A stretch of 64,000 bases of DNA from Staphylococcus phage Machias, in sequence record MW349128.1; one strand, 5' to 3'. Each line of letters begins with the position of its first letter. The stretch's first letter is position 1. The position numbers and the translations under genes were made by a program. Under the pieces are notes generated by a model, which did not search any database, was not told where the DNA came from, and saw nothing but the letters and a program-made list of their open reading frames with translations. Positions 10,931 to 60,937 of the stretch are shown here, piece after piece.

Positions 10931-10945
10931 AAAAAAAAAATATTA

Positions 10946-10985: not shown

Positions 10986-10988
10986 TAA

Positions 10989-16392: not shown

Positions 16393-16401
16393 TGCAATAA
16401 T

Positions 16402-16438: not shown

Positions 16439-16681
16439 TTGCCTATCTTTTTCTTGTTCTTTTATTTCTTCTAAAAGAGCTTCATTAAACTTAGATAATC
16501 TGAAAATTAAATTTCTTTGATTATTTGTTTCCTTTTCTATTTTTGTTAATTTTTCTCTTAAAGAATTCAACTGTTTAGTAATTCTAAAATAACCTAAAAT
16601 CAGTGGAAAACTAAAAATCAAAAAATAAATAAAGAGGCATAGTAAGACTAACTGTAACAAGACATTTCCCCCTCGATGCAT
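16436..16681 (-). CDS. Small membrane protein (about 81 aa from the internal ATG at 16681): N-terminal TM helix plus charged coiled-coil C-terminus; holin- or spanin-like candidate
   Basis: Translation MHRGGNVLLQLVLLCLFIYFLIFSFPLILGYF followed by a KE-rich helix. Divergent from a putative cell-wall-binding and amidase gene pair. Confidence 0.3.
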   Translation of the reverse strand: MHRGGNVLLQLVLLCLFIYFLIFSFPLILGYFRITKQLNSLREKLTKIEKETNNQRNLIFRLSKFNEALLEEIKEQEKDRQ

Positions 16682-16709
16682 TATAAATAGAAAGGAGCTC
16701 ATAAAATAC

Positions 16710-45202: not shown

Positions 45203-45236
45203 AATTTTAGTTCCTTTCAGTTATGTTAATTTTAAA

Positions 45237-45829
45237 TTAAGTAAACATATTCAATCCCGGATTATTTGGATGGGGATTATATTGGGATTTATATCCATAA
45301 ATTGCATCATCAATTTGTTGTTGAAAAACTCTTCCTTTAATTACTTGCATACTTCTAGAATATTGAGTTTTCATATTAATTTGAGCTTTATCAATAATGG
45401 ATAGTTGATCTCTTCTAATTCCTGCTAAGCAATCAATATAAGATAATAATCCTGTATTAAATTTCATTCTTTGGAATGATTTAGAAGCCATTAAGTTTGG
45501 ATACATATCTCTAATATTAATAGATACAGTAATTTCTCTTGGGAAACCATCTGCAGTCCATGTACCTTCTTCACCACGAACTATATTCATTGAAGTTATT
45601 ATACCTGTATTACATTCAAATCTACCAGGACAATTAGCTCTAATAATAAACGGTTGCTTATAAGAGAATATTGAATCTTGTAAAGGTAAAGCTAATACTA
45701 ATAATGAAAGAAATGGTAAATATACATTGTCAAATATAGATTGTGGATCTCCATAAGCACTATAGAATTTAAATTCTAGATTATAAGTACGGTCAAAAGT
45801 TGAATTCATCCAAACCTGGTTTGTTAAAT
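45237..45829 (-). CDS. Downstream exon (exon 2) of a tail/baseplate gene interrupted by the IStron-like element. The open frame extends upstream of the annotated ATG to about 45829.
   Basis: The frame stays open for 10 codons upstream of the ATG (NQDLTNQVW), up to a G at 45830 that can serve as the intron terminal G. Confidence 0.35.
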
Positions 45830-45839
45830 CTTGATTTTA

Positions 45840-46070
45840 TATATTAAATATAAAGGCAAGACCTTGTATAAAATACACTTGGCTCAGTGACTAACGTATA
45901 AGGGAACCCTTATACTCCTTGTAAAGCTAATCGGACATTAGCTTATCACCCGTTTATCGTCTCCCGCTACCCGCAGGCGACTCTCATATCTTTTATTTTG
46001 TGAGATTAAACATATTTTAAATCTAGAATATTTTTAGCTGCATTTAAATCTCTATCAAGAACTACATCAC
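45840..46070 (-). ncRNA. Candidate TnpB omegaRNA (reRNA) scaffold / IS right end overlapping the tnpB 3' end
   Basis: Locally GC-rich (unlike the surroundings) with several hairpins on the minus strand: GCTAATGTCCGATTAGC, TATAAGGGTTCCCTTATA, CGCCTGCGGGTAGCGGGAG. Sits immediately 3' of tnpB, where omegaRNAs are encoded. Confidence 0.4.
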
Positions 46071-47199: not shown

Positions 47200-47453
47200 T
47201 GTTTAATTTCACCTCCTAATCATATTATATAAATATGTTAGGAAATTCCTGATATGAATTTTTTATCAGTATTTTATACAATCTCTAAATTAGTAATTTA
47301 GAGCACAGACTATATCATACTCATTGATATGAGTGAATATATTTAGTCGTTGGACAAGTCTTATTGACTTGATGCTGATTGAGATAATAATCTATTCCAG
47401 CAATTAATATTCTTTGCTAATTAAAATTACTTTTAATAGGGACTATTTGTGTG

Positions 47454-48354
47454 AATAATCCGGATAATACATTGATGCACCATCTAAATGTTCCATAAAG
47501 TTACCTACAATACCACCAATAACTGGCATATTTGCTACCATATCATTAATACTATCTTTAATAGTTCTAGTAATTTTACCTAAAATAGAAGCTCCACCAA
47601 TACGAGCCATTTCTTTTTGTTCTCGTATTTCTTGGTTTTTATTATTAACTTGAGAAGCAATATCAGATTGATTATATTCATGCATTGCAGATTCTGATAT
47701 ACTAGTTGATTTATCTGCATAGTAAGCTAGTCCATAGTTTTTATCATCTTGTAGAGATCCACCTAGATCAAATGATCCTTTTAAACCCATTGATGCATGA
47801 ACTTGAGAAGCCATAGTTTGTACGTATTTATAATATTCAGCCATTTTAGGTTCAAAGCTTATCATACGACCATCTTTAGTATTACCGATACCTACTAAAG
47901 ATAAACCAGAGTTTACTAATCTATCCATTCCTTCACCAAAACTCCATAATTTACCTTCTCCTGGTTTACCAAATAATTTACCATTTAATTTAGGCATACC
48001 CGGCATTATAAATACTAAAGGTAAATCTAATTCAAATGTTCTTTTATATATTCTTCTATTAGGATCATCTAAACTAGAATAGTACATAGGCATTCCAAAT
48101 ACATCTAGTTCACCTTTAACATTTCTTAATTGTTTTTTATCTTTAGCATTTTTATCTGTTAAATATTCAGTTGCTTGTCTTTGATTACCCAAAGCATCCA
48201 TAAAAGCACCAGTATCTTTTTGAGTAGGATCATATTCATGATAGTCATAATCACCTTTTTTCTCATCAGCTTGAGGTATTAAAGCCATATCATCATCTGC
48301 CACTTTTAAAGGTTCTTGTTCCTTAGACTCTTTTTTATCTTTTTCTTCAGCCAA
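47454..48354 (-). CDS. Upstream exon (exon 1, 303 aa as an ORF) of the tail/baseplate gene interrupted by the IStron-like element
   Basis: The ORF stops (TAG 47443-47445) a few codons inside the group I intron 5' region, the same pattern as all other intron-split genes in this window. Confidence 0.45.
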
Positions 48355-48455
48355 TTTATTTCACTTCCTTTTAATAATAAAGAGGATATGACACATAATA
48401 AATGTCATATCCCCAATTTAATTTATTTACTATAAATTTATGTTGCATCAAAATA

Positions 48456-51400
48456 TTATTTTCCTGAGAAAACAGGTATAGCTGGTCTAACGTCAATAAC
48501 AAATCTATCTCCATAAGAATCTCTAATTGCTTCTTGTAAATCTTGATTACCTGTAGATGGATCTTGACTTGAACCATCAGGAGTATAAGGATTATTAGGA
48601 TCATTAGGATTATTAGGGTTGTTTGGATTATTAGGATTTGATTGATTATCATTTCCATTATTATTGCTATTATTTCCATTAGAACCATTAGATCCATTAG
48701 AACCATTATTTCCATTAGATCCATTTTGACCGTCTTTACCGTTATTAATAATATTAGGATTTTCTTTAATAATTTTTTCAAGCTCTTTTTGAATATCTTT
48801 AATAATTACATTACCTTTAGAATCTACTAAATCACCTTTATTATTAATAATAGTATTAGAAATATTTGTTGTATTTCCATCTTTATTAATATTTTTACCT
48901 TTAAAGGACATATCTTTAAGTTGTTCTAACATTTTGGCAGTATTTTTATCAATATTGCTTGTATGTTTAATTATATTATCTAAATCCATACGTTTTTGTG
49001 GATCTACTTTCATAGGTCCTTTATTTTCATAATTTACTTTAGAATTATTATAATTATTAGTAATATTATAGATATTTCTTACTGTATTATTATTACCTTG
49101 TATAGTTTGATTTGTAATGGAATTATTATTAGTTGTAGGTTTACCATTATTATAATTATTATTGATAACCGTAGAACTATTATTTCCTCCATTATTAATT
49201 ATACTAGAATTATTCTGGTTATTATTAACATTTCCTTGACTTCCTGAAGATGATTGATTGTTACCATCAGCTCCAGAACTATATGAAGGTGATGAACCAT
49301 CTTTACCGTCTTTTCCATCAGAACCATCTTTACCAGATGATCCTTCTGAATCGTCAGATGATGAACTTGATCCACTTGAAGATCCAGATTCTGTAGCTTC
49401 CTTACCTGCTTTAGCTTTAAGTTCAGCCTGTTGTTCTTCATCTATCTTTTTAGCTTCTTCATAGTCAATTCCATAAATTCTAGCATAACGTTTCATTAAT
49501 CTATCATTTAAAGCTTCTTGTTCTTCTTCATCCATACGGTTATCATCTCTACCAGTAATAGAACCGTACCAAGTACCATTTTTGAAACTATATTCAGAAG
49601 CTCCAGCAGAAGATCCATTAGAGTCTCCTCCTTCACTATCGCTTCCACCTATTTTATCACTACCATCTAGAGGTTTACCTGTATCATCAGGACCACCGCC
49701 GCCATATCTCATTGTAATACCAATTTGTAATCCCATTTTTTGGTATTTATTTGCAGGAGTTACAGCAACACCATGACCATAATATGATTCAACTTGTTTT
49801 CCTCCACCTATATACATAGTAACATGGTTATCGTTATCACATAAAGTAATATCACCAATTTTTTTCTTAGTGCCTTTACTTATTTTTCTAAATTTAGTAC
49901 CACCATCTCTAAAAGTAAAAGTGGTAGCATTAATATCCATTTCTAAACCAGCTTTTTTGAATGAACGAGCAATTAAACTAGAACAGTCAAATGAATTTTT
50001 ACCTTGTCTATTTGACTGAGAGTATGTTGCACCATCTTGAGCTATTGCCCATTGTACTGCTTGTTTAATTTTATCTCTTTCAGATCCACCGGATCCTCCA
50101 CCTTTACCATAAACTCCACCAGTAATAGTAGGTTTTTCTAAAACTAAACCAGTTTTTCCAACTTTTTTATTTTTATTAGATGTAGATGATACCATATTTG
50201 CAAATTGATTAACGTTCGTATCACTATAAACAGTACTAGAACCTCCACCTTTAGCTTTAGTGGATTTCTTAGATGAACCCCCTAGTTTATCTAACCATTT
50301 TTTAGCGTTTGATTGTCTTTCAGGAATAACTTTAACTCCTGCACGTTCATACAAATTCTCCCATACAACTGTTGCTTCATCAACATTCTTAGCTTTCTTA
50401 ATAGCAGACCAAGCAGCAGATTCAGATCCTTGAAGTTCATACCACATGAAGTCTAACTGAGCATCAAGATCAGACCATTTCTTACCTTTCTTTTCAGCAA
50501 ATGCTTTAAGATTATCTTTACGATCATCCCATTGAGCTAGTCCTTTACCTCCGACCCAACCAGAGTTTTGTTCGGCACCGGGATCCATTTTGGATTCACG
50601 TTCAAAGTTACCTAATATACCTGCTATCTGATGATCTTCTAACCCTTTTTCAGCAAAGAAATTCCATACTTTAGATGCAACATCTTTACCATCAACACTT
50701 TCTGCTCCTCCATCAGATGATCCTTCTGAAGAAGAACTTCCTGATGAACCGGCCATGAATCCTGCCATAATATCATTCATCATTCCGCCAAGTTTATCAA
50801 ACCAATCACCAATTTTGTTTACTACTTCACCATCAGGATCAGTTATATCTTTTTTAGATTTTTTCTTTTTCTTCTTACTTAATAAAGAATAGAAAGGAGA
50901 TAATCTTAACATAGTTTCAGCCAATTTTTTAGGAGCTTTTTTAAGTTTACTCATTAAATTATTAGGCATCATTTTATGCATTTTTTCACTAATTTTACCC
51001 ATGATAGATAAAGGAGAATTTTTCATTACTCCATTAACATCTTTCTCGATATTATCTTTAGTTTTATTAGTTGACTCTTCTACTTGTTTTTTAGCATCTT
51101 TACTAGCTTTATCAGACATTCCTTGCATTTCAGCCATTTCTTTCTTAGCTCTTTCAGATGCATGATCTTCAATACCTTCTTGATAAGAACCTAATTCTTC
51201 TTTACTAGCTTCCACCATTTCACGACTTTGATTAGACATATCTTCTTCATGAGAAGAGAATTTGTCATCAAGGAATCCTGATAAGTTTTTAGCTAAGCCT
51301 ATTCCACCTTGAATAAGATTAGAAGTAGCTCCGACCATATTACTAATTCCTTTTCCAGCCATAGCTAAAGGTGCCATTAATAACATTGAAGCTCCACCTA

Positions 51401-54200
51401 CAGCTTTTTTAATTAAACCACCAAAACCTTCAGATTTTTCTTCCATCATACTATCAGTAGAATCACCAAATCCTTTAGCCATTCCAGTAGTTTTTTGTAC
51501 CATATTCATACCTAGACCAAAAGCAGGTTTTACAATTCCTTTATAAAGTCCAACTCCAGCTAATCCCATTAAAGGAACTTGAGCTAATAAAGGATTGTCT
51601 TTAATAAAACTTCCAATTAATGAAGAACTATCTTTATCACCAGTTAATTTAGAATCAACTAAAGGATCAACACTAAATTTAGCATTTTCACCGTTAGGTT
51701 GCTCTGAATCTAATTTCTCTTGTTCTTTTTTCTGTTTTGCAGGGTGATCATTAAAACCTATAAAGCTTCCTAAAGTTTTAATTGGATGTTTAAGAGATTC
51801 AATTGGATGTGCTATAGTACTCATTATTTCAGGAGCAGACAATAATATAGATAAAGGTAATCCTACACCAGTTGCGGCCAGTCCTACTCTTGAACCTACT
51901 TTCAAACCAGCTTTAACTATACCTTTACCGGCTTTAGATCTCATTAATTTACTTCCAACTTTACTTGCACCAAATTTACCTTTAGCTTTATTTCTTAGTT
52001 TAGAACGTAATCCTCTTCCAGCACCAGATAACAAAGCTCCACCAGCAGCAAATTTACCGGCAAGTGATTCACCAGCACCTATAACACTTTTACCAATTTT
52101 AGTATTAGCCATTTTACTATCTAATACTTTTCTTTTAAGTTTATCTTTATCAATATCTTTAATTTTATCTTTAGCTTTTTCTTCTATTTTATCTTTAATC
52201 TCATCTTTTAATGGATTATCTTCTTTTTCTTCTTGTTGTCTATTTACTTCAGAAGCATGAGCTTCATTACTATCTGAGATCAAAGTAGATTTTTGTTTAT
52301 CTTTATTATTTAAATTATTTCCATTATTAGAATTAGAAGAATTATTAGAATTAGAAGACTTAGTATCTTTAATATCATCCAATTTTTCTTTAATTTCATC
52401 AAATTTACTATCTTGTTTTTGACTATCTCCAGATACAATATTATTATTATCATTTTGTGAAGATTGTTGATTATTTTTTCTTACATCTAGTTTATCATTT
52501 ATTCTAGATACAATATTTTTAATTTCACTTATATCGCTATTGATAATATTAAAATTAATGTCAGAAAATTCATTGTTACCTTTAGAAGCATATGACTTAG
52601 GTTTTTGACCTTTATCATTAACTGCATTTATAGTACTTCCGCCAAGATTTTTTCTAATTGATTTAGATTTTTGATTCAATTGCATTCTAGCTTTAGTTAA
52701 ACTAGTTTTTACTTCTTTATCTTCAAATAGCTCTTCTAAAAGACTATTTACATTAGATGACTTAGTTTTAACTTTATCACTATCTTTAGAACTATTAACA
52801 TTTTCACTAATAATATTTTTTACTAATGATTTATAATCTTTAGAGTCTATATTTTTATCTTTAGCTTTACTTTCAACTCTTTTAAAGAATTCAGAACTTT
52901 CAATAGTTTTATCTATAGATTTTTTAATTTCATCATTAATAGTTTTAGATGTTTTAAAAGATCCTGAATCATAATCATAATGAATTTCTTCACCATCTTC
53001 AGAAGTTAAACCAACTATTTTAGATAAATAACCAGGAATAACTGTATTAATAGTACTATGTGTTTCAACATCAAAAGCTACTCTTTCATTTTTATTCTTT
53101 TTATTTGCTGTTGAAATTCCACCATCTATATTATTAAATAATTTATCTATAAGTTTGCTTTTCTGTTTATCTATGAAATCACGATTAGTTTTCTTCTTAT
53201 CTTCTTTATTTTCATCTTTAGTAAATACCGTTGACATATTTGTTAGCTTTTCACTAATTTTATCACTGTTTATTATATCAAAAGCTTTACCTTTAGCACT
53301 GTCTAAAAGTCCACCTTGTATGCCTTTAGTTCTACTCCCAATAATATCTTTAACTAATTCAATACCTTGTTTTTTAGCAAATTCTTTAGCTTTATCTTTA
53401 AAACCATCTGCTTGACTACCACTTAGTATATTAGAAAGAGTTATATTAGATAAGAACAAATCTTCTAAAGAATTACTATTTTTAATTTCACTTATATTTT
53501 TTACAGATGTATTATTTCTAATATCATTACTAGTTTTGATTAAACCTGTTAATCCTTCAAATAAATTCTCTCTAACATTATCATTAGTTTCTCTCATGTA
53601 ATGAAGAGTTTCCATTAAATTATTAAAACCTGTGGCATTAATTTGAGATAAATTAGATATAGAAGAAGTTAAAAGAGCAGAAGATTTAGCTGAAGATGAA
53701 TTATCATTAATTACTGTTGTTGATGAAATGACTTCAGATTTATTACTTTCTTCTTCATCAAAATCATCGAAAGAAAAATCTCCTATTTCATCATTATCTG
53801 AATTTTCATCACTCATATCAAAATCATCAAAGCTACTGAAATCAAAATCATCGCCCATATCCATTGTTCCGCCATCTAAATTGGATGATTTATTTAAAGC
53901 TCCTTTATCTATGATCGTTTCACCAGTTTTTAAAGTTCTTTTAGTACTTTTAAGAGCTTCTTTAGATAAATCTTTCCCAGTTTCAGTTAACTTCTTAAAT
54001 TGTTCTTTTCTATTATCTTTAACTTCTTTGATAGCTTTTAAAGGATTATTGTTATCAATAAGTTTTTTCATATTGTTTGATTTCATGTTATTCAAATTCT
54101 TTTTGAATTCATTATCAATGTATTTTCTAGAAGAATTAGAAGAGGAGTTCCTATTGAACTCTCTTTCTAATTTCTTATTATTAAATTTATCTTTAGCCAA
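48456..54200 (-). CDS. Giant tape-measure-like tail protein 1 (1914 aa) with a lysozyme-like domain and an NlpC/P60 (CHAP-like) peptidase domain
   Basis: Gly/Lys-rich GKxxGK repeats and hydrophobic helices typical of tape-measure proteins; AGILGNFERES...GKGLAQWDDR phage tail lysozyme-like block; C...H NlpC/P60 block (FDCSSLIARSF...HVTMYIGGG); C-terminal Ser/Asn-rich low complexity. Confidence 0.65.
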   Translation of the reverse strand: MAKDKFNNKKLEREFNRNSSSNSSRKYIDNEFKKNLNNMKSNNMKKLIDNNNPLKAIKEVKDNRKEQFKKLTETGKDLSKEALKSTKRTLKTGETIIDKGALNKSSNLDGGTMDMGDDFDFSSFDDFDMSDENSDNDEIGDFSFDDFDEEESNKSEVISSTTVINDNSSSAKSSALLTSSISNLSQINATGFNNLMETLHYMRETNDNVRENLFEGLTGLIKTSNDIRNNTSVKNISEIKNSNSLEDLFLSNITLSNILSGSQADGFKDKAKEFAKKQGIELVKDIIGSRTKGIQGGLLDSAKGKAFDIINSDKISEKLTNMSTVFTKDENKEDKKKTNRDFIDKQKSKLIDKLFNNIDGGISTANKKNKNERVAFDVETHSTINTVIPGYLSKIVGLTSEDGEEIHYDYDSGSFKTSKTINDEIKKSIDKTIESSEFFKRVESKAKDKNIDSKDYKSLVKNIISENVNSSKDSDKVKTKSSNVNSLLEELFEDKEVKTSLTKARMQLNQKSKSIRKNLGGSTINAVNDKGQKPKSYASKGNNEFSDINFNIINSDISEIKNIVSRINDKLDVRKNNQQSSQNDNNNIVSGDSQKQDSKFDEIKEKLDDIKDTKSSNSNNSSNSNNGNNLNNKDKQKSTLISDSNEAHASEVNRQQEEKEDNPLKDEIKDKIEEKAKDKIKDIDKDKLKRKVLDSKMANTKIGKSVIGAGESLAGKFAAGGALLSGAGRGLRSKLRNKAKGKFGASKVGSKLMRSKAGKGIVKAGLKVGSRVGLAATGVGLPLSILLSAPEIMSTIAHPIESLKHPIKTLGSFIGFNDHPAKQKKEQEKLDSEQPNGENAKFSVDPLVDSKLTGDKDSSSLIGSFIKDNPLLAQVPLMGLAGVGLYKGIVKPAFGLGMNMVQKTTGMAKGFGDSTDSMMEEKSEGFGGLIKKAVGGASMLLMAPLAMAGKGISNMVGATSNLIQGGIGLAKNLSGFLDDKFSSHEEDMSNQSREMVEASKEELGSYQEGIEDHASERAKKEMAEMQGMSDKASKDAKKQVEESTNKTKDNIEKDVNGVMKNSPLSIMGKISEKMHKMMPNNLMSKLKKAPKKLAETMLRLSPFYSLLSKKKKKKSKKDITDPDGEVVNKIGDWFDKLGGMMNDIMAGFMAGSSGSSSSEGSSDGGAESVDGKDVASKVWNFFAEKGLEDHQIAGILGNFERESKMDPGAEQNSGWVGGKGLAQWDDRKDNLKAFAEKKGKKWSDLDAQLDFMWYELQGSESAAWSAIKKAKNVDEATVVWENLYERAGVKVIPERQSNAKKWLDKLGGSSKKSTKAKGGGSSTVYSDTNVNQFANMVSSTSNKNKKVGKTGLVLEKPTITGGVYGKGGGSGGSERDKIKQAVQWAIAQDGATYSQSNRQGKNSFDCSSLIARSFKKAGLEMDINATTFTFRDGGTKFRKISKGTKKKIGDITLCDNDNHVTMYIGGGKQVESYYGHGVAVTPANKYQKMGLQIGITMRYGGGGPDDTGKPLDGSDKIGGSDSEGGDSNGSSAGASEYSFKNGTWYGSITGRDDNRMDEEEQEALNDRLMKRYARIYGIDYEEAKKIDEEQQAELKAKAGKEATESGSSSGSSSSSDDSEGSSGKDGSDGKDGKDGSSPSYSSGADGNNQSSSGSQGNVNNNQNNSSIINNGGNNSSTVINNNYNNGKPTTNNNSITNQTIQGNNNTVRNIYNITNNYNNSKVNYENKGPMKVDPQKRMDLDNIIKHTSNIDKNTAKMLEQLKDMSFKGKNINKDGNTTNISNTIINNKGDLVDSKGNVIIKDIQKELEKIIKENPNIINNGKDGQNGSNGNNGSNGSNGSNGNNSNNNGNDNQSNPNNPNNPNNPNDPNNPYTPDGSSQDPSTGNQDLQEAIRDSYGDRFVIDVRPAIPVFSGK

Positions 54201-54221
54201 TTTTTATTCTCACCACTCTTT

Positions 54222-57200
54222 TTATTTTAATTCTTCTAAAAGTCTATCTAATTCTTTAGTAGAAGCTAATGTATTTCTATCTATATTTGACAACATTTTA
54301 ACGAGGTCATCTGAATACCAATATTGCTCATAATCATATATATAATCTGTATTACCATTAGTTACAGTTGAATTTTTATAATTATTTACAATTTTATTAT
54401 AATGATTTGTAGTTTTATTTTTACCTTTTACAAATTCTTGTTTTACATCGGTATTATTAACAGTACTTCCTTGACCTTGATTATAATTATTATTTGTTGT
54501 ATTATTACTTGTATTACCTTGATTATTTTGTGTTGATTTATTACTATTAGAAAAACCACTATTCTCTAATGTTGGTAATTGGAAACCATTACCTAATTTA
54601 GAAATTTGACTACCTGCTTTTTCAATATTTTCTTTAGCTTTATCCTTAGAAGAACTTGCAGAAGATCCAGAATCTTTATCGTCTCCATCTTTAGATGAAC
54701 TTGATCCGCTTGAAGATCCAGACTCAGTAGCTTCTTTACCTGCTTTAGCTTTAAGCTCTTCTTGTTGTTCTTTATCTATTTTCTTAGCTTCTTCATAGTC
54801 AATTCCATAGATTTTAGCATAACGTTTCATTAAACGATCATTAAGCTCTTCTTGTTCTTCTTCATCCATTCTTCTATCATCTCTACCGGTAATAGAACCA
54901 TACCAAGTACCATTTTTGAAACTGTATTCTCCGGCTCCGGAACCTGAAGAAGAATCAGAACTATCACTATCAGAAGATTCACCATCTTCATCTTTAGAAA
55001 CTTTAGATTCAGATCCTTTTTCATCTTCATCTTTATTATCTTTTTTATCAGCTTTAGATTTTTCTTTTTCTACTTCTTTATCAATTTTTTCTTCTGCTTT
55101 TTTATCATCAGAAGAACCTCCACCACCAATATAAGGATTTACATACATTTTTATTAAATCTACTAATATCATTCTACCTTTATTAGTTGGCATATAACCA
55201 TCTTCTTTAACTAAAACAGAATTAGCTTTACTAAACCAGTCAATTATATTAGCTGCACTAGCATTAATTGATTCATTGACTGCATTCATCAAATCAGTTA
55301 AATCTAAACTAGTACCGTTTTTATTACTATTGAAATAAGTATTAACGAAATATACATTAGCTTTATCATACATATTCTGTATTTCTGATATTTCTCCTGT
55401 AGATAATCCTCCGTTTAAACCTAATTGGATGACTATTGCTACACCTGTTCTGTTATACTCATCAATATTATTCTGTAATATTCTTCTACCAGATTCAGAT
55501 CCACCAGAATATTGTTTCCCTACAGAAGCTTCTATTTTAGCACCTTTAATTTTAATTCTAAGATCATTTGAAGCATCTTTAGTTATTTCATCACCTATAA
55601 TCAAAATTTTATTAAATTGATTTGATGATCTTAATATTCCAGTTTGTTTTTTCTCTTTACTTTCTTTAATTGCATTAAATACTTTATTTACTTTTTTAGC
55701 TTTTTCTTTAACTTTATAATCATCTTGCTTATTGATTCTATTTATTTGTGTATTAATTTTATCTTGCTCTCTCTTTTGTTGAGCAATTTCTTTTCTTCGG
55801 TTCTGCATATCTTGGATGCTTTTCTTCTTAAGTTGTCTTTGCATAGATACAGAATTCATATCACCTACTAGTGAATGACCTCCACCTTTATCTTTTTCAC
55901 CTTTTTTACTACTTCCACCTTTAGAACTACTCTTATCGTCATCATCATCTGAACCTTTACCTTTTACTTTAGCAAATACATAAGGTGCTGGATCAATTGC
56001 AGTTTCATTTGAAGGTCTTCCTTTCATGACCTGGAAGTGCATATGTGGTGCAGTAGTTTGAGCCCCTGTATTACCAGAGACGGCAATTTTTTGACCTACT
56101 CCTACTTTATCACCTTTTTTAGCAGTTATTTTACTATTATGCATATACCAAGTGTAGATACTACCGTTTTTGACCTCAACGATATTACCTCCACCAACGT
56201 CTTTAATTATATTACTTACTGTACCAGGTACAATAGCTAATATATCTGTTCCTGTAGGCATACCAATATCTATACCCCAGTGTTTTGAACTTCCGTTAAA
56301 TGATAGTCCTTGATAATTACCAAATGGTTGCCAGAATTGGTGTTTCTTAATCCAAGCACCTGCAGCATTATCAGGTATTTTATTCAATACAGATTGTGAT
56401 GTAATAGAAGGTGCATTTTTATCTATTTCAATTTCATCACCTTGTAATTGTCCACTACTGCTACCTGATGAAGATGATGAATCTCCACCTGAACTAGAGT
56501 TTTTCATTTTAGACATGGCAACTACCATTTCTTCCATTTTAACTAAGAAACGTGCAAACCAATCACCAATTTCTCCTCCACCTTTAGTAGAGAAATCTAT
56601 TCCACCTTTTGCAATTTGATATAAACTACCTAAAGGAGTATCATAGAACATATTTTCTTGTATTTCTTCTTCAGCTTTAGGACCTGACTTCATTTTATTA
56701 TCAGTTATTGTTTTAAACATATCTCCACCAACTTTTGAAATTGGGAATAAAGGAGATGATCTAAACATCATTTTAGAAGTAGATAATATTAATCTTCCTA
56801 AACCTGTTTCATCTTCATTTTCTTTTTCTTCTTTTTCTCTAGCCTCAAGATTATCTCCTGGGTGTTTAGACAATCCGAAAAAGCTTCCTAAAGTTTTAAT
56901 TGGATGTTTAAGAGATTCAATAGGATGTTTTATAGTTTTGATAATATCTGGTGCCCACATTGCCGCACCTATAATAGGACCAACAATAGGTATAAAAGGT
57001 AATGCTGTTTTTAGACCAGCTTTTAAAGCAAATTTTCCAGCAGCTTTCATACCGCCTTTACTGAATAATTTATTTTTAGCTTTACCTAAGAATCCAAAAG
57101 TTTTTTTACCCCCATTTTTTATAGAGCTAAATATACCTTTACCTATAGAACTAGCTTTTTTAAAACCTTTACCTAAAAATTTACCCGTTTTAGTTAATCC

Positions 57201-60146
57201 CTTAACTGCAAATGATTTTACTTTAGGTAACTTTTTAGCACCCCATTTTACTACAGATGCACCTGTATTGAATGCACCTTTACCAAATTTAACAGTTTTA
57301 TTGAATACACCTTTACCAAATTTAACAGTTTTTCCAAATATATTTTTACCTAAATTTCCAATACCTTTTATTAAATTTTTAGTTTTCCCATAAAAGTTCT
57401 TTCCTATATCTACAACTTTACCAATAGCACCTTTAACTTTACCAGGTAGTCCTCTAACTACATCAAGCATTTTCATTGCACCTTCAGGTAAGAATTTCTT
57501 TAGTATCTTAGGTAAGAATTTTGCTGCTATAGCACCTCCACCTAACATTAAACCAGCTTTACCTAAAAATCCTAATCCTGTTCCAACACTACCCATTAGA
57601 CCTTTTTCTTGATCTTTTTTCCTTTTACCGTTCATTAATTTAGCCAAAACAGTAGCAGATAGTCCTGCAAAAGCAATTGTTCCTGGTTTACTAAAATCTA
57701 ACATTGAGTTCATTAATTTCTTAGTACCTGTTTCTTTTTCAGCTGCTCCACCAGAGCCAAATTTAAGAGTTCCTCTTAAATCTTCAGCAACCTTTGTTTT
57801 ACTAGATCCTGATAATTTTGATATAACGTCTTCACCAGTCTCAGCAGCATTTGCAGTTGATAAACCTTTTTTCATTTCATCTAATTTTTTATTATCATCA
57901 GATTGATTCATGTCGTTTATCATAGTTTTACTTTGCTTAGGATAAGCAGTGCTAATTAAATTTTCAAGATATTTTCTAGCTTTAGATTGCTTTTCTTCTC
58001 TAGATAAATCATCAATACTTTTAGTTGGTTCTTTATTTAAATCAACTTTATTATTACTCTGAGGTCCTTTAATATTCTTTATTAAATTCATTAAAGGATG
58101 ATTATCTGTATAGTTATTATCTATGATACCAGAATTATGATCTTCATTATTACCATTATTATTAGTGTTTTCTCTTAAAATAGATGAAGGATCTTTACGC
58201 ATATCATTAAATTTATTAACAGAACTTGATAGTTTACCTAATTTGTCTTGAACTGATTTTGTTTTTTCATTAGATAAATAACTAGGTAAATTAAACTTAC
58301 TAGACGAATCTATAATACTATTAATTTTTCCTATTTTATCATTTACATAATCTTTATTATTGCTTATATTTTCTGGATTAATATCGTCTAATTTACTTTC
58401 TATTTCTAAGAATAATTTTTTAAGTTCATCAAGATCATCATTCTTCCATTCGATATCAGAATAATCTTTAACTTCATTAATTTTATTTACTCTAGCAGAA
58501 CTTGATTGAGTTTCATTATTTCTTCTTTTTAATCCTTTAATATCTGTAAATGACATTAATGTTGAATCATCTTTACCAATCTTGTTATACTCAGAGCCTA
58601 TTGATTTCTTAATATTAAAAAGATCAATATTAAATTTAGATATATCATTATTGAAAATATTTTCAATAATATCTGAATAATTTATATCCTTAGTATGCTT
58701 AGATAATTCATCTTTATTTTTTACTGGTTTATTAATTTTACTTAAAGAGAGTAAGATATCTTTAATTTCTTCATCTTCAATACCATTATCAGATAAATCT
58801 TTTCCTAATTTAGTATCTTTAAAATTAAATAATGATTTTTCTTTTAATTTATCATTTATATTTTTTCTAGTATTCTCTCTACTATCCCAAGTTCCTTCAG
58901 AATAGTTATATATACTACCTAATTCACTATTATTAACTAAACCGTTAGATTTTCCTTCTCTTTTAGCAATTAGGTTACCTTGTAATCTAGATAAAAGATC
59001 TGGTATAGCTTTATTAATAGAAGTATGACTTTCCCTATCAAATTGAACCGGAGTACTTTTATCTCTTTTATTCTTAGTTGATATTGTTCCATCACTTAAA
59101 ACGTTATCTTTTAAATTTCCGATTCTTTTATTAAGTGCTTCACCTAAATTAGAAATATATTTATTATCATTACCTTTAAGTTTATCTAAGGTATTTGATA
59201 ACCTTCCTTCATCATCAGTCAGTTCACTTACTAATAAAGAACCTAAATTATTAGGATCAAATTTTCTATTAAGTCTACTAAATATACCTTTATTTTCAAC
59301 ATCATCTGGATCGTATCCTGAAGTACTTCCATACATCAATTTCTTCATGCCCATTTGAGCACCTGTAGTTAATGCTAATTCAATAGGATTTTTTGCAAAT
59401 CCCATTAATATATTCTTAAGTCCTTCAGAACCACCTAACATACTTATCATTGAATTATTTTCAATATTTGTTTTATTATCTAAATATTTTAATAAACTTA
59501 TATTGCCATTAAGTATCTCAAATAGTTTACTTTGTTTTCCTCTTTTAGTGTTTTCTTCAAGTAAGGTATTTTGATATATAGAACTCTGTATTGATGCTAA
59601 ATTCGATACAGCTGAATTCATTAAAGTACTTGTAGCCTCATTTGATATCGCTAAATTTCTTAAAGCTATATTAGTTCCTGTAAAACCTTTTTGGTTAATC
59701 GTAGCGAGATTATTAAAAGCAATTAAAGGGGAATTTACTAGACTAGATTTCTTTTTATCTGAAACATTTATTATTTCAGATTTTGTACCATCATCATTAT
59801 CAATTATTTCAGTAATTGTTTCATACTCAGGTTTAGAATTTGATAGTTCTTCACTTTCTTCTGAAAATATATCATTTTCTTTTGAACTAGATTTAATGCT
59901 TTTTATTAAATTCTTAGTGGAAGATTTAATTTCAGAAACGTTTTTAATTCTTCTTTCTTCTTTATTCATTAAATTTAATCCATCAGAACCAATAACACTA
60001 TCTAATGCTGGATTTGATTTAATAAATGCATTGAAAAGAATACGACTAGTATTTTTAGAAGCATTTTTAATTATCTCTGATTTATTATTTTTTTCTAGCC
60101 TCTTTATATTCTTTTTATTATTATCCATTACTTTTAATTTCACCAC
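54222..60146 (-). CDS. Giant tape-measure-like tail protein 2 (1974 aa), paralogue of the previous gene, with an M23 peptidase domain and an SGNH/GDSL hydrolase domain
   Basis: M23 motifs HWGIDIGMPTGTD ... GNTGAQTTAPHMHFQV; SGNH block ILIIGDEITKD ... GLNGG; GKxxGK repeats; shares the HPIESLKHPIKTLGSF and YSFKNGTWYGSITGRDD motifs with the upstream paralogue. Confidence 0.65.
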   Translation of the reverse strand: MVKLKVMDNNKKNIKRLEKNNKSEIIKNASKNTSRILFNAFIKSNPALDSVIGSDGLNLMNKEERRIKNVSEIKSSTKNLIKSIKSSSKENDIFSEESEELSNSKPEYETITEIIDNDDGTKSEIINVSDKKKSSLVNSPLIAFNNLATINQKGFTGTNIALRNLAISNEATSTLMNSAVSNLASIQSSIYQNTLLEENTKRGKQSKLFEILNGNISLLKYLDNKTNIENNSMISMLGGSEGLKNILMGFAKNPIELALTTGAQMGMKKLMYGSTSGYDPDDVENKGIFSRLNRKFDPNNLGSLLVSELTDDEGRLSNTLDKLKGNDNKYISNLGEALNKRIGNLKDNVLSDGTISTKNKRDKSTPVQFDRESHTSINKAIPDLLSRLQGNLIAKREGKSNGLVNNSELGSIYNYSEGTWDSRENTRKNINDKLKEKSLFNFKDTKLGKDLSDNGIEDEEIKDILLSLSKINKPVKNKDELSKHTKDINYSDIIENIFNNDISKFNIDLFNIKKSIGSEYNKIGKDDSTLMSFTDIKGLKRRNNETQSSSARVNKINEVKDYSDIEWKNDDLDELKKLFLEIESKLDDINPENISNNKDYVNDKIGKINSIIDSSSKFNLPSYLSNEKTKSVQDKLGKLSSSVNKFNDMRKDPSSILRENTNNNGNNEDHNSGIIDNNYTDNHPLMNLIKNIKGPQSNNKVDLNKEPTKSIDDLSREEKQSKARKYLENLISTAYPKQSKTMINDMNQSDDNKKLDEMKKGLSTANAAETGEDVISKLSGSSKTKVAEDLRGTLKFGSGGAAEKETGTKKLMNSMLDFSKPGTIAFAGLSATVLAKLMNGKRKKDQEKGLMGSVGTGLGFLGKAGLMLGGGAIAAKFLPKILKKFLPEGAMKMLDVVRGLPGKVKGAIGKVVDIGKNFYGKTKNLIKGIGNLGKNIFGKTVKFGKGVFNKTVKFGKGAFNTGASVVKWGAKKLPKVKSFAVKGLTKTGKFLGKGFKKASSIGKGIFSSIKNGGKKTFGFLGKAKNKLFSKGGMKAAGKFALKAGLKTALPFIPIVGPIIGAAMWAPDIIKTIKHPIESLKHPIKTLGSFFGLSKHPGDNLEAREKEEKENEDETGLGRLILSTSKMMFRSSPLFPISKVGGDMFKTITDNKMKSGPKAEEEIQENMFYDTPLGSLYQIAKGGIDFSTKGGGEIGDWFARFLVKMEEMVVAMSKMKNSSSGGDSSSSSGSSSGQLQGDEIEIDKNAPSITSQSVLNKIPDNAAGAWIKKHQFWQPFGNYQGLSFNGSSKHWGIDIGMPTGTDILAIVPGTVSNIIKDVGGGNIVEVKNGSIYTWYMHNSKITAKKGDKVGVGQKIAVSGNTGAQTTAPHMHFQVMKGRPSNETAIDPAPYVFAKVKGKGSDDDDDKSSSKGGSSKKGEKDKGGGHSLVGDMNSVSMQRQLKKKSIQDMQNRRKEIAQQKREQDKINTQINRINKQDDYKVKEKAKKVNKVFNAIKESKEKKQTGILRSSNQFNKILIIGDEITKDASNDLRIKIKGAKIEASVGKQYSGGSESGRRILQNNIDEYNRTGVAIVIQLGLNGGLSTGEISEIQNMYDKANVYFVNTYFNSNKNGTSLDLTDLMNAVNESINASAANIIDWFSKANSVLVKEDGYMPTNKGRMILVDLIKMYVNPYIGGGGSSDDKKAEEKIDKEVEKEKSKADKKDNKDEDEKGSESKVSKDEDGESSDSDSSDSSSGSGAGEYSFKNGTWYGSITGRDDRRMDEEEQEELNDRLMKRYAKIYGIDYEEAKKIDKEQQEELKAKAGKEATESGSSSGSSSSKDGDDKDSGSSASSSKDKAKENIEKAGSQISKLGNGFQLPTLENSGFSNSNKSTQNNQGNTSNNTTNNNYNQGQGSTVNNTDVKQEFVKGKNKTTNHYNKIVNNYKNSTVTNGNTDYIYDYEQYWYSDDLVKMLSNIDRNTLASTKELDRLLEELK

Positions 60147-60204: not shown

Positions 60205-60267
60205 TACAAAAAAAAACAAAAATTTCCCTAACACAAATACTCCATTTAAGGAATATAAGTGTTAGGG
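60205..60267 (-). terminator. Minus-strand terminator (CCCTAACAC ... GTGTTAGGG with a T-run on the minus strand) downstream of 60275..60937
   Basis: 9-bp stem; on the minus strand the hairpin is followed by AAATTTTTGTTTTTTTTT. Confidence 0.45.
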
Positions 60268-60274: not shown

Positions 60275-60937
60275 TTATTTATTTTTAACTACTTCTTGAA
60301 TTTTATCTAATACTAAATCTACATCTTTTTCTAAAGATAATTTTTCAAATAACATAGTTAATAAGAAATCTATTGTTTTATGGTTAATAAAGAAAATAGA
60401 ACCAATAATATGATTCATTTCTTTTTTACTGACTTTTTTATTTTCTTGATGATATTTTCTATTAGGTGTTAATCTTCTTATATGACCACCATTATTAACC
60501 ACTGTTTTACTTACAGAATCAATTATTGTTTGATAGAATTTATCATCACTAACTTTTTCACCTGTATTTAATACAAAATCTTTACTGAAATTTAAATCAT
60601 TTAATTCTATTACATATTTGTATTCTAAATTATACTTCTCAATCAAAGTAGAATTTATAGAAACAAAATAAAGAATTATATCTAATAATTCAAGAGAAGC
60701 TAATGAAGTTAATTCATAGCGTTCCTTAATATTATCAGTCTTTAATAAATTATACATTTCAATATTAAACTCATAAGATTCTTCAATTATTTGAGGTAAA
60801 AATCTATCAATCATTTGATGTAATTCTTCGTCACCAAAATCATAACGTTTAATTACATCAATATGATTTAAATATAGATTCTCTATATTAATATTAATAC
60901 TTCTTTTCTTATTGTAAAAATGCTTCATTAATATCAT
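60275..60937 (-). CDS. Hypothetical protein (220 aa) immediately upstream of the tape-measure-like genes; possible tail assembly chaperone
   Basis: Position and size. Confidence 0.35.
   Translation of the reverse strand: MILMKHFYNKKRSININIENLYLNHIDVIKRYDFGDEELHQMIDRFLPQIIEESYEFNIEMYNLLKTDNIKERYELTSLASLELLDIILYFVSINSTLIEKYNLEYKYVIELNDLNFSKDFVLNTGEKVSDDKFYQTIIDSVSKTVVNNGGHIRRLTPNRKYHQENKKVSKKEMNHIIGSIFFINHKTIDFLLTMLFEKLSLEKDVDLVLDKIQEVVKNK

What the first reader, a model, noticed from the sequence alone, without database searches (positions are those of the whole stretch)
48456..60146. Two tandem paralogous giant tape-measure-like proteins that together carry four distinct cell-wall hydrolase domains
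Adjacent minus-strand genes of 1914 and 1974 aa share tape-measure hallmarks: GKxxGK repeats, hydrophobic helices, and the motif HPIESLKHPIKTLGSF in both. They carry different enzymatic payloads. Protein 1 has a phage tail-lysozyme-like domain (AGILGNFERES ... GLAQWDDR) plus an NlpC/P60 (CHAP-like) Cys/His peptidase. Protein 2 has an M23 metallopeptidase (HWGIDIG ... HMHFQV) plus an SGNH/GDSL esterase-like domain (ILIIGDE ... GLNGG). A duplicated tape measure whose two copies have diversified into complementary glycosidase, endopeptidase, amidase/esterase-type activities is unusual. Most myoviruses have one tape measure and a separate tail lysin. It suggests a multi-enzyme cell-wall-penetration device, perhaps for a thick or O-acetylated peptidoglycan.
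Basis: partly seen in the sequence, partly recalled or inferred. Interest (0 to 1): 0.8.

Follow-up and report, generated by a model that had tools for sequence, protein, structure and literature searches.

The report
Duplicated tape-measure/tail-lysin genes, Staphylococcus jumbo phage
Two neighbouring giant genes of a Staphylococcus jumbo phage are diverged copies of the single tail-channel "tape measure plus wall-cutting enzyme" gene of related giant phages; the pair is real but already described in close relatives, and the fourth "enzyme" domain has lost its catalytic residues in this phage.

Summary
The window is a Staphylococcus jumbo myophage, 98% identical in DNA to vB_StaM_PB50. Both ORFs exist exactly as described (1914 and 1974 aa, minus strand). 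They are collinear paralogues and are under purifying selection.

Three of the four domain calls hold, with catalytic residues present:
- Phage_lysozyme2 in protein 1
- NlpC/P60 in protein 1
- LytM/lysostaphin-type M23 in protein 2

The fourth is a genuine SGNH fold. It is homologous to the C-terminal O-acetyltransferase domain of S. aureus OatA (profile E 1e-14). In this phage the nucleophile Ser is Glu and the catalytic His is Met, whereas 30/30 and 28/30 database relatives keep them, so it is probably a pseudo-enzyme.

Relatives with one giant gene at the same spot, directly upstream of the phiKZ gp182-type baseplate spacer gene, are a phiKZ-type phage, AR9 and BpSp. Listeria LPJP1 also appears to have one. 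All nine reference Staphylococcus jumbo phages have two, so the duplication reading is supported.

The pair and three of its domains are already published and annotated (Korn et al.; the DC4 paper). "Tape measure" remains an inference, and no virion proteomics detects either protein.

New details are the OatA-like degenerate domain, two gene-conversion islands, and the recurrent fusion of this SGNH subfamily to phage tail lysozymes.

The parts
54222..60146 (-). P2: giant tail-channel protein, 1974 aa from the GTG start (the likely true start is ATG 60128). PB50 annotates the orthologue as 'tape measure protein'.
   Evidence: purifying selection
48456..54200 (-). P1: paralogous giant tail-channel protein, 1914 aa with a TTG start. 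PB50 and MarsHill annotate the orthologue as 'tail lysin'.
58983..59048 (-). P2 N-terminal family motif VQFDRESHTSINKAIPDLLSRL (aa 367-388). It is shared with P1, AR9 gp203, BpSp gp263 and a phiKZ gp181 homologue.
53016..53081 (-). P1 N-terminal family motif VAFDVETHSTINTVIPGYLSKI (aa 374-395).
56847..57749 (-). P2 Gly/Lys-rich hydrophobic region (aa ~800-1100). The most hydrophobic helix is 1047-1065.
51231..52103 (-). P1 Gly/Lys-rich hydrophobic region (aa ~700-990). The most hydrophobic helix is 772-790.
56880..56927 (-). P2 copy of HPIESLKHPIKTLGSF (aa 1074-1089). It lies in an island of 84% nucleotide identity with P1.
51762..51809 (-). P1 copy of HPIESLKHPIKTLGSF (aa 798-813).
55989..56285 (-). 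P2 Peptidase_M23 domain (aa 1288-1386). H1289/D1293 and H1368/H1370 are present. The closest solved relatives are 5KQB, LytM and lysostaphin.
55116..55628 (-). P2 OatA-C-like SGNH-fold domain (aa 1507-1677). Block I reads GDE (E1520 in place of Ser), block III Asn N1578 is kept, and block V reads DGYM (M1652 in place of His). It is probably non-catalytic.
54723..54929 (-). P2 copy of the ultra-conserved block EYSFKNGTWYGSITGRDD...KEATE (aa 1740-1808).
50283..50681 (-). P1 Phage_lysozyme2 domain (aa 1174-1306). It is related to the N-terminal lysozyme domain of the phi29 gp13 tail protein. The GNFERES Glu is conserved.
49749..50069 (-). P1 NlpC/P60 (Amidase_5) cysteine peptidase domain (aa 1378-1484). 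C1406 and H1459 are present. E1471 aligns with the third catalytic residue.
49389..49595 (-). P1 copy of the ultra-conserved block (aa 1536-1604). It is 93% identical in protein and 89% in DNA to the P2 copy.
60215..60265 (-). Terminator-like hairpin plus T-run upstream of P2. It marks the start of the two-gene unit.
   Evidence: read from the sequence; MarsHill has an annotated terminator at the same place
48382..48414 (-). Terminator-like hairpin (13-bp stem plus T-run) just after the P1 stop codon.
   Evidence: MarsHill has an annotated terminator after its tail lysin
47443..48354 (-). N-terminal piece of the downstream baseplate 'spacer ring' gene, a homologue of phiKZ gp182. It serves as the synteny anchor for the giant genes.
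45237..45809 (-). C-terminal piece of the same spacer-ring gene. It is separated from the N-terminal piece by a TnpB element.

Best explanation
P2 and P1 are tandem, co-oriented paralogues of the single giant tail-channel protein found in phiKZ-related jumbo phages (phiKZ gp181, AR9 gp203). That protein combines a long, low-complexity or helical 'ruler' part, a Gly/Lys-rich hydrophobic membrane-active segment, and peptidoglycan-cutting domains in its C-terminal part.

Shown:
- The two genes are homologous and collinear.
- They sit between terminator-like hairpins, directly upstream of the baseplate spacer-ring gene.
- Both are conserved under purifying selection in all known Staphylococcus jumbo phages.
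- P1 carries a lysozyme domain and an NlpC/P60 domain with catalytic residues intact. P2 carries a LytM/lysostaphin-type M23 domain with catalytic residues intact, followed by an OatA-C-type SGNH domain that has lost its Ser and His.
- Both share a near-invariant ~55-aa core (69-aa block) after the enzyme domains, kept alike by gene conversion.

Inferred:
- Both proteins are built into the tail lumen, docking to the same partner in the baseplate centre through the shared block. Together they set the tail length of about 235 nm.
- They are expelled on sheath contraction.
- The enzyme domains then cut the thick staphylococcal wall at complementary bonds: glycan strand, stem peptide and pentaglycine bridge. 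The hydrophobic segments help to form the channel through the membrane.
- In this phage the SGNH-like domain serves as a non-catalytic module, for binding or as a spacer. In the MarsHill/S6/PALS_2 lineage, where Ser and His are intact, it may remove O-acetyl groups that block lysozyme.
For: Identity of the window. It is 98% identical in DNA to phage PB50, where the two genes are annotated 'tape measure protein' and 'tail lysin'.

Paralogy. Four collinear segments.

Domains and catalytic residues..

SGNH domain.
- Profile against SaOatA-C (6WN9/6VJP), E 1.2e-14. The entry identity comes from PMC9487903.
- Relatives with Acyl_transf_3+SGNH architecture.
- Ser is kept in 30/30 and His in 28/30 relatives, but this copy has E and M.

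Synteny.
- The downstream gene matches phiKZ gp182 (PDB 9xqs_K, E 1.3e-12). gp182 is the spacer ring between tube initiator and hub (PMC13250141).
- There is one giant gene upstream of that gene in a Phikzvirus (2236 aa), in AR9 (gp203, 1925 aa, annotated as tape measure) and in BpSp (gp263, 1797 aa). The 33-kb LPJP1 stretch examined holds one fragmented gene region.
- There are two in all 9 Staphylococcus jumbo phages.

Shared N-terminal motif. BLASTP hits to AR9 and BpSp have E 2e-7 to 5e-9. A motif profile hits the gp181 homologue at 20.8 bits.

Selection. dN/dS is 0.11-0.30 for both genes.

Conversion islands. 89% nucleotide identity over 236 nt and 84% over 83 nt, with flanks near 40%. 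The block is more alike within a genome than between orthologues.

Published support.
- Tail length is 233-237 nm, and 'two potential tape measure proteins' with helical content and transmembrane segments are described.
- phiKZ gp181 is an experimentally shown structural peptidoglycan hydrolase.
- In phage 80alpha the C-terminus of the tape measure protein sits inside the tail tip. This fits the enzymes lying in the C-terminal part.
Against: - No tape-measure family of Pfam matches. The PHROG 'tape measure' matches run only through the enzyme domains.
- No solved structure matches the non-enzymatic parts.
- The only virion proteome of a relative (DC4: 15 proteins, shallow, sheath also missed) detects neither protein. 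The terms gp263 and 263 do not occur in the main text of the BpSp proteome paper.
- The phiKZ structural atlas does not mention gp181 or a tape measure.
- Whether a tube lumen can hold two different ~1900-aa proteins, and at what stoichiometry, is unknown.
- Protein length per nm of tail is not constant across relatives: phiKZ gp181 has 2237 aa for a tail I recall as about 200 nm (my own knowledge, not a tool result).
Confidence: 0.6

Rival explanations
1. Division of labour, as in the GenBank annotations. Only P2 is the length-determining tape measure inside the tube. P1 is a tail lysin attached at the baseplate or tail tip and plays no part in measuring.
For: - PB50, MarsHill and Madawaska annotate P2 as tape measure and P1 as tail lysin. 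Korn et al. chose this because P1 had detectable PG-degrading domains.
- P1 has a ~300-aa Asn/Ser/Gly-rich C-terminal extension that P2 lacks.
Against: - P2 also carries enzyme domains (M23 plus SGNH-like), so the criterion used for the split does not discriminate.
- P1, not P2, has the payload type of the single-copy genes of relatives. AR9 has a glycosidase domain and LPJP1 has a glycosidase plus NlpC/P60.
- Both share the N-terminal motif, the hydrophobic region and the same post-enzyme block.
Confidence: 0.2
2. Neither protein measures the tail. Both are virion-borne ejection or lysin proteins, analogous to T7 gp16 or T5 pb2 in their wall- and membrane-breaching role only. Tail length is set by another protein or by the tube and sheath themselves.
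For: - No tape-measure family match.
- No proteomic or structural placement in any relative.
- Much of both proteins is low-complexity and charged rather than clearly coiled-coil.
Against: - The genes lie in the tail module next to the spacer-ring gene. This position is conserved from phiKZ to AR9.
- No other long candidate is seen among the tail genes of this window.
- About 1650 non-enzymatic residues in each protein is of the order needed for a 235-nm tail at about 1.5 A per residue (my arithmetic).
Confidence: 0.12
3. One of the two copies is a decaying, functionless duplicate or a frameshifted pseudogene.
For: - The SGNH-like domain of P2 has lost its catalytic residues. Its dN/dS is higher than that of the M23 domain (0.31 against 0.08).
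Against: - Both ORFs are uninterrupted in the window and in nine other genomes that differ by up to 45% in protein sequence.
- Whole-gene dN/dS is 0.11-0.30 for both.
- Catalytic residues of the lysozyme, NlpC/P60 and M23 domains are kept.
Confidence: 0.02

Closest known systems
The same gene pair in published Staphylococcus jumbo phages (MarsHill/Madawaska/Machias, Korn et al., bioRxiv 10.1101/2020.12.14.422802; vB_SauM-UFV_DC4, PMC10638138; PB50, AH12, S6, PALS_2, SA1, LY01)
   Same: - Orthologous genes in the same order and with the same flanks. Protein identity is 97% (P1) and 99% (P2) to PB50, and 55-62% to the others.
- The literature already states 'two potential tape measure proteins', one with PF18013 and PF00877, and an M23-bearing tape measure next to a tail lysozyme.
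   Different: - The SGNH/OatA-like domain is not mentioned in the passages I retrieved from the Korn preprint and the DC4 paper, where I did not search for the term. The word 'SGNH' is absent from the SA1 paper.
- In this phage, as in PB50, AH12, SA1 and LY01, that domain lacks Ser and His. In MarsHill, Madawaska, PALS_2, S6 and DC4 it keeps them.
phiKZ gp181 / AR9 gp203 / BpSp gp263: the single giant structural peptidoglycan hydrolase or 'tape measure' of phiKZ-related jumbo phages
   Same: - Size of 1800-2240 aa and position directly upstream of the gp182-type spacer-ring gene.
- The N-terminal FD..T..I...IP.(Y/L)LS motif, a Gly-rich hydrophobic middle and a wall-hydrolase domain in the C-terminal part.
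- gp181 is an experimentally shown virion peptidoglycan hydrolase.
   Different: - There is one gene there and two here.
- The payload is a single glycosidase (a VgrG3-like_C domain in AR9; glycosidase type for gp181 from the review table), not two domains per protein.
- The ultra-conserved post-enzyme block is absent outside Staphylococcus phages.
- Sequence similarity is weak: BLASTP E 1e-4 to 5e-9 on short stretches.
Tape measure proteins with built-in wall and membrane activities, e.g. phage T5 pb2 (Boulanger et al. 2008, cited)
   Same: One long tail-lumen protein combines ruler, membrane-active and muralytic functions.
   Different: - There is no detectable sequence relation.
- It belongs to a siphophage and is a single gene.
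- This resemblance rests on established knowledge, not on a test done here.
phi29 gp13 tail-knob wall hydrolase (PDB 3CSQ)
   Same: - The P1 lysozyme domain is its closest solved relative (E 7e-7).
- By my own knowledge, gp13 pairs this lysozyme with a LytM-type M23 domain. That is the same pair of activities that P1 and P2 provide together.
   Different: - gp13 is a 334-365-aa protein on the tail knob, not a giant lumen protein.
- Here the two activities are on separate paralogues.
OatA C-terminal SGNH O-acetyltransferase domain of S. aureus (PDB 6VJP/6WN9) and the SGNH-bearing Tal of S. aureus phages 80alpha/phi11
   Same: - Homologous SGNH fold, 25-30% identical over about 150 aa.
- The block III Asn is kept.
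- An SGNH domain on a tail-tip protein of staphylococcal phages has precedent, although its activity is unproven there too.
   Different: - No Acyl_transf_3 membrane domain is attached, so it is not an OatA.
- Block I Ser and block V His are replaced in this phage.
- It is embedded in a 1974-aa tail protein after an M23 domain.

Membership tests
Peptidase M23 (LytM/lysostaphin type) | Match to the family model above the curated threshold | tested here: met
   PF01551, 80.1 bits against a cut-off of 28.7, P2 1288-1386. Best solved relatives are 5KQB (1e-27), LytM (1e-26) and lysostaphin.
Peptidase M23 (LytM/lysostaphin type) | Zinc and catalytic motifs HxxxD and HxH | tested here: met
   H1289-WGI-D1293 and H1368-M-H1370. 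They align with the LytM motifs.
NlpC/P60 cysteine peptidase | Match to the family model above the curated threshold | tested here: met
   PF00877, 30.9 bits against 23. PF05382 (Amidase_5), 29.1 bits against 21.
NlpC/P60 cysteine peptidase | Catalytic Cys and His, plus a third polar residue | tested here: met
   C1406 (FDCSSL) and H1459 (NHVTMYIG) align with FDCSGL and SHAGIYIG of 8IDC. The third position is E1471, where 8IDC has His. The role of the third residue is inferred.
Phage_lysozyme2 (PF18013, phi29 gp13 N-terminal type) | Match to the family model, and the conserved Glu of the GN...ES motif | tested here: met
   138.6 bits, E 2e-40, covering 2-140 of 140 model positions. GILGNFERES aligns with GMLGNMQSES of 3CSQ.
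SGNH hydrolase superfamily, OatA-C (SGNH-AT3) branch | Homology of the whole domain | tested here: met
   A profile of four phage copies against 6WN9/6VJP gives E 1.2e-14. Pairwise BLASTP gives E 5e-16. phmmer finds Acyl_transf_3+SGNH proteins. There is no Pfam hit for this copy. The single-sequence structure model was unusable, with pLDDT 40.
SGNH hydrolase superfamily, OatA-C (SGNH-AT3) branch | Block I GDS nucleophile Ser | tested here: not met
   GDE: E1520 stands in the Ser column. All 30 database relatives, SaOatA and MarsHill have Ser.
SGNH hydrolase superfamily, OatA-C (SGNH-AT3) branch | Block III Asn (oxyanion hole) | tested here: met
   QLGLN1578GG. Asn is kept in all phage copies and in 29/30 relatives.
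SGNH hydrolase superfamily, OatA-C (SGNH-AT3) branch | Block V DxxH catalytic His | tested here: not met
   DGYM: M1652 stands in the His column. 28/30 relatives have His.
OatA peptidoglycan O-acetyltransferase (whole enzyme) | N-terminal Acyl_transf_3 membrane domain fused to the SGNH domain | tested here: not met
   No PF01757 in P2. It is a captured or shared domain, not an OatA.
Tail tape measure protein (functional class) | Sequence match to a tape-measure family outside the enzyme domains | tested here: not met
   No tape-measure Pfam family matches. The PHROG 'tape measure' hits cover only the lysozyme or M23 regions.
Tail tape measure protein (functional class) | Gene position in the tail module next to genes of the baseplate centre | tested here: met
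   Directly upstream of the phiKZ gp182-type spacer-ring gene. Sheath and tube genes lie 3.3-9.6 kb away.
Tail tape measure protein (functional class) | Length proportional to tail length | tested here: inconclusive
   About 1650 non-enzymatic residues in each protein, against about 1560 needed for 233-237 nm at 1.5 A per residue (my arithmetic). The ratio is not constant across relatives, and much of the sequence is low-complexity.
Tail tape measure protein (functional class) | Present in the virion inside the tail tube; length changes alter tail length | not testable with these tools
   The shallow DC4 proteome does not list either protein. No genetics or structure is available.
phiKZ gp181 family | Giant gene directly upstream of the gp182 homologue, sharing the N-terminal motif | tested here: met
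   Synteny in a Phikzvirus. A motif profile hits the gp181 homologue at 431-528 with 20.8 bits, and IPGYLS is shared. Similarity is weak, and BLASTP finds nothing at E<=0.01.

The most novel reading that the evidence does not exclude
The OatA-type SGNH domain in the tail-channel protein is a phage answer to peptidoglycan O-acetylation, the modification that makes S. aureus resistant to lysozymes.

- In the MarsHill/S6/PALS_2/DC4 lineage, where Ser and His are intact, the domain would strip 6-O-acetyl groups from MurNAc at the point of entry. The Phage_lysozyme2 domain of the sister protein could then cut the glycan.
- In this phage's lineage, and independently in SA1 and LY01, the domain has become a pseudo-enzyme. 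It would be kept as an O-acetyl-peptidoglycan-binding or spacing module.
- The repeated fusion of this SGNH subfamily to Phage_lysozyme2, M23 and NlpC/P60/CHAP in unrelated metagenomic proteins would then mark a general 'de-acetylate, then cut' wall-breaching toolkit.
- The duplication of the giant gene would be what let one virion carry the whole kit.
Probability: 0.25. Interest if true: 0.6.

Novelty: already known. Interest (0 to 1): 0.3.

Why it matters
As given, the finding mostly re-discovers something that is annotated and published for this phage group. By itself it changes little.

Three things are worth keeping:
- A clear comparative statement. Staphylococcus jumbo phages duplicated the phiKZ gp181-type tail-channel gene, while the phiKZ-type, AR9 and BpSp relatives examined (and apparently LPJP1) carry one copy. 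This makes the clade a natural system for asking how two different ~1900-aa proteins share one tail lumen, and which of them sets tail length.
- A specific, cheap, testable hypothesis. It links a virion protein domain to OatA-type O-acetylation, the main lysozyme-resistance mechanism of S. aureus. Natural active-site-intact variants (MarsHill, S6, PALS_2, DC4) and active-site-lost variants (this phage, PB50, AH12, SA1, LY01) are available for comparison.
- Four ready-delimited enzyme domains, three of them probably active, of possible use as anti-staphylococcal enzybiotic modules.

Tried and rejected
- **Pfam on the SGNH-like segment of this phage:** no hit even at E 10. The MarsHill copy gives only sub-threshold Lipase_GDSL (0.0034) and DUF459 (0.0085) hits.
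- **Word-indexed homologue searches:** the single domain found nothing. The four-sequence profile found one weak hit.
- **IMG/VR pattern scan with the domain alignment:** 322 pattern matches, none confirmed.
- **Structure prediction of the domain:** The single-sequence model had pLDDT 40 and was unusable, so no fold search was run.
- **PDB sequence searches:** nothing significant for the non-enzymatic N-terminal 1250 aa or the C-terminal 284 aa of P2. Nothing for the 720-aa neighbour.
- **Pfam and PHROGs on neighbours:** no hits for the two small upstream genes (60275-60937, 60950-61867) or for 43040-45202.
- **Virion proteomics in the literature:** the DC4 table lacks both proteins but also lacks the sheath. 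The terms gp263 and 263 do not occur in the main text of the BpSp paper. The PALS2 and SA1 papers say nothing on these genes.
- **Intron reading of the TnpB insertion:** Rfam search of 44500-49000 at E<=0.1 found no group I or II intron or any other family.
- **tRNA scan of the window:** none found.
- **Sigma-70 promoter scan:** fewer sites than in shuffled sequence, so uninformative for this phage.
- **Pseudogene reading:** considered and rejected.
- **Conjugative-element wall hydrolase reading** (my first thought for TM plus lysozyme plus NlpC/P60): rejected. The window is a myophage with sheath, tube and baseplate genes.
Full report
**What the window is.** The region is AT-rich (24-34% G+C). 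Its DNA is 98.1% identical over all 11,691 bases to Staphylococcus phage vB_StaM_PB50 and 95.8% identical to phage AH12. It is more distantly related to S6, PALS_2, MarsHill, Madawaska, UFV_DC4, LY01 and SA1. These are the roughly 260-kb Staphylococcus jumbo myophages related to Bacillus phages AR9/PBS1. Neighbouring genes fit this: a 1049-aa tail sheath, a tube protein, ribonucleotide reductase and a Dda/RecD-like helicase.

**The observation.**
- P1 starts at a TTG preceded by GGTGA.
- P2 probably starts six codons inside the listed ORF, at ATG 60128 after GGTGGTGA.
- The two proteins are collinear paralogues. BLASTP gives four ordered segments:
  - an N-terminal region (P1 169-572 against P2 168-587, 26% identity, E 4e-11);
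  - the Gly/Lys-rich hydrophobic region ending in HPIESLKHPIKTLGSF (42%, E 9e-18);
  - a pre-enzyme segment with IGDWF (E 5e-4);
  - a 71-aa block that is 92% identical (E 5e-37).
- The G/K richness is real. The strongest hydrophobic helix lies just before the shared motif in both proteins.
- A terminator-like hairpin precedes P2 (sequence) and another follows P1. MarsHill has annotated terminators at the same places. The pair therefore looks like a two-gene unit.

**The four domains.** Pfam supports three:
- Phage_lysozyme2 (P1 1174-1306, E 2e-40);
- NlpC/P60 with Amidase_5 (P1 1378-1484, above the curated thresholds);
- Peptidase_M23 (P2 1288-1386, E 1e-22).

Comparison with solved structures refines these.
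- The lysozyme domain is nearest to the N-terminal domain of the phi29 gp13 tail protein.
- The NlpC/P60 domain aligns with mycobacterial and Bacillus DL-endopeptidases and with a Clostridioides 'hub-hydrolase'.
- The M23 domain is nearest to 5KQB, LytM and lysostaphin, the glycyl-glycine endopeptidases of staphylococci.
- Catalytic residues are in place: the Glu of GNFERES; C1406 and H1459; H1289/D1293 and H1368/H1370.

The fourth domain (P2 1507-1677) has no Pfam match, and two word-indexed searches found essentially nothing. However:
- A profile of four phage copies matches PDB 6WN9/6VJP at E 1.2e-14 over nearly its whole length.
- 6VJP is the C-terminal SGNH O-acetyltransferase domain of S. 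aureus OatA (PMC9487903).
- An exhaustive phmmer search with the window's own domain found 43 relatives. Among them are ~600-aa proteins with an N-terminal Acyl_transf_3 domain, which is the OatA architecture.

**The fourth domain is degenerate here.** In the alignment with SaOatA-C and 30 database relatives:
- The block I Ser is present in 30/30 relatives.
- The block V His is present in 28/30.
- The block III Asn is present in 29/30.
- This phage has Glu1520 and Met1652 in the Ser and His columns and keeps only the Asn.

Among the Staphylococcus jumbo phages:
- MarsHill, Madawaska, PALS_2, S6 and DC4 keep GDS and DGLGVHP. That variant also occurs in several database relatives.
- PB50 and AH12 have GDE and DGYM, SA1 has GDE and DGSGYM, and LY01 has GDD and DGIT.

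The degenerate domain still evolves under constraint. dN/dS is 0.31 between this phage and LY01, against 0.08 for the M23 domain, with dS near saturation. I therefore read it as a retained pseudo-enzyme rather than junk. The single-sequence structure model was useless, with pLDDT 40.

**Is it a duplicated tape measure?** The gene downstream of P1 is homologous to phiKZ gp182 (PDB 9xqs_K, E 1.3e-12). gp182 forms the hexameric 'spacer' ring between the tube initiator and the hub in the phiKZ baseplate (PMC13250141). Directly upstream of that gene there is a single giant gene in:
- a Phikzvirus (2236 aa, the gp181 equivalent);
- AR9 (gp203, 1925 aa, annotated tail tape measure, with a VgrG3-like lysozyme domain);
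- BpSp (gp263, 1797 aa).

In the 33-kb stretch of Listeria phage LPJP1 that I examined there is one such gene region. It is fragmented in the annotation and carries a VgrG3-like domain plus an NlpC/P60 domain.

All nine Staphylococcus jumbo phages have two places matching the P2 N-terminal 1100 aa. P1 and P2 share with AR9 and BpSp the N-terminal motif around FD..T..I...IP..LS. A profile of that motif finds the phiKZ-type giant at the collinear position, with 'IPGYLS' in common.

The duplication reading is thus supported, and it is specific to the Staphylococcus clade among the relatives I could examine. The payload of P1 (glycosidase plus NlpC/P60) resembles the single-copy genes more than that of P2 does. 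This argues against the convention of calling only P2 the tape measure.

**What is not shown.** That either protein measures the tail, or even sits in the virion, is not shown.
- No tape-measure family matches outside the enzyme domains.
- No solved structure matches the non-enzymatic parts.
- The DC4 virion proteome (15 proteins, sheath also missing) lists neither protein.
- The phiKZ atlas does not mention gp181.

In favour:
- phiKZ gp181 is an experimentally characterised structural peptidoglycan hydrolase.
- Korn et al. report helical content and transmembrane segments for both proteins, and tails of 233-237 nm.
- Each protein has roughly 1650 residues outside its enzyme domains. That is the order needed for such a tail at about 1.5 A per residue (my arithmetic).

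**Concerted evolution.** The block EYSFKNGTWYGSITGRDD.RMDE.EQE.LNDRL.KRYA.IYGIDYEEAKKID.EQQ is nearly invariant in both paralogues of all the phages. The rest of these proteins is only 55-62% identical between lineages and about 25% between paralogues.
- Within this genome the two copies are 93% identical. The orthologues in MarsHill are only 79-85% identical to them.
- At the DNA level the block is 89% identical over 236 nt, with third positions 75% identical. The HPIESLKHPIKTLGSF island is 84% identical over 83 nt. The flanks are near 40%.

This indicates gene conversion on top of strong selection. The block occurs only in Staphylococcus jumbo phages. My inference is that it is a common docking element for the same partner in the baseplate centre.

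**A recurrent enzyme toolkit.** Apart from the OatA-type relatives, the SGNH subfamily is found fused to wall-cutting domains in other proteins:
- Phage_lysozyme2 in 7 of the 20 proteins scanned;
- M23, NlpC/P60 or CHAP, SLT, and 3D domains in others.

The architectures include lysozyme2-SGNH-M23, lysozyme2-SGNH-NlpC/P60 and M23-SGNH-NlpC/P60. One lysozyme2+SGNH protein is from a Saccharibacteria genome. This supports a functional link between this SGNH type and glycan cleavage. It also makes the 'de-O-acetylate, then cut' idea reasonable for the lineages with an intact active site. An SGNH domain on a tail-tip protein of staphylococcal phages also has precedent (80alpha/phi11 Tal, activity unproven).

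**Comparison with what is known, and verdict.**
- Korn et al. already wrote that these phages have 'two potential tape measure proteins', one with PF18013 and PF00877 and therefore annotated as tail lysin.
- The DC4 paper lists a tail lysozyme next to a tape measure protein with an M23 domain.
- GenBank records carry these names.

The core of the finding is therefore already known, and the window is a close relative of a sequenced phage. As far as my searches went, the following are unreported:
- the OatA-C homology of the fourth domain and its loss of catalytic residues in half of the clade;
- the explicit one-copy against two-copy comparison anchored on the gp182 homologue;
- the two conversion islands;
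- the wider fusion pattern of this SGNH subfamily.

I score interest at 0.3. But the 'unusual' architecture is a described clade-wide trait, and the proposed esterase is probably dead in this particular genome.

Noticed in passing
window 45816-47457 (TnpB ORF 46006-47199, minus strand): A 1642-bp element is cleanly inserted relative to PB50. It encodes a TnpB/IS605 OrfB protein (OrfB_IS605, Cas12f1-like_TNB and HTH domains; phrog_506, E 2e-65). It splits the phiKZ gp182-type baseplate spacer-ring gene after about codon 299 of 491. The C-terminal piece has its own ATG two codons after the junction. The element is co-oriented with the gene, and no Rfam intron was found. The gene may be disrupted, expressed as two pieces, or restored by splicing or excision.
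   Followed up: partly
L008 (AR9) 14791-17126: The AR9 homologue of the same spacer-ring gene (gp204) is annotated as joined from three pieces, with small ORFs in the intervening sequences. In LPJP1 it is annotated as two CDSs. This gene seems to be a repeated target of intervening elements in the group.
   Followed up: no
window 1-9092, minus strand: A giant ORF of more than 3030 aa runs off the left end of the window. PHROG matches point to a tail or adsorption protein with repeated domains: tail protein, host range and adsorption protein, PblB-type receptor binding, and hyaluronidase-like and glycerophosphodiesterase-like segments.
   Followed up: partly
L005 (LY01) 9471-15416 compared with window 55116-55628: P2 of LY01 is overall closer to MarsHill (79%) than to this phage (61%). 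Its SGNH-like domain, however, is of this phage's type (59% against 42%) and has a third active-site state (GDD / DGIT). This suggests mosaic exchange of the domain between lineages and more than one loss of the catalytic residues.
   Followed up: partly
proteins P0008, P0010, P0012, P0015-P0017, P0022, P0034, P0040, P0043, P0060 (metagenomic relatives): The OatA-C-like SGNH subfamily recurs in multidomain wall hydrolases together with Phage_lysozyme2, M23, NlpC/P60 or CHAP, and SLT. One of these proteins comes from a Candidatus Saccharibacteria genome. Their genomic contexts could not be looked up with the tools allowed.
   Followed up: partly
window 10000-14000: G+C content drops to 19-21%, the lowest in the window, at a switch in strand bias. 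Not examined.
   Followed up: no
window 60275-60937 and 60950-61867 (minus strand), 43040-45202 (minus strand): Two small genes upstream of P2 and a 720-aa gene downstream of the spacer gene are conserved in all the relatives. None has a Pfam, PHROG or PDB sequence match. By position they could be tail assembly or baseplate proteins.
   Followed up: partly
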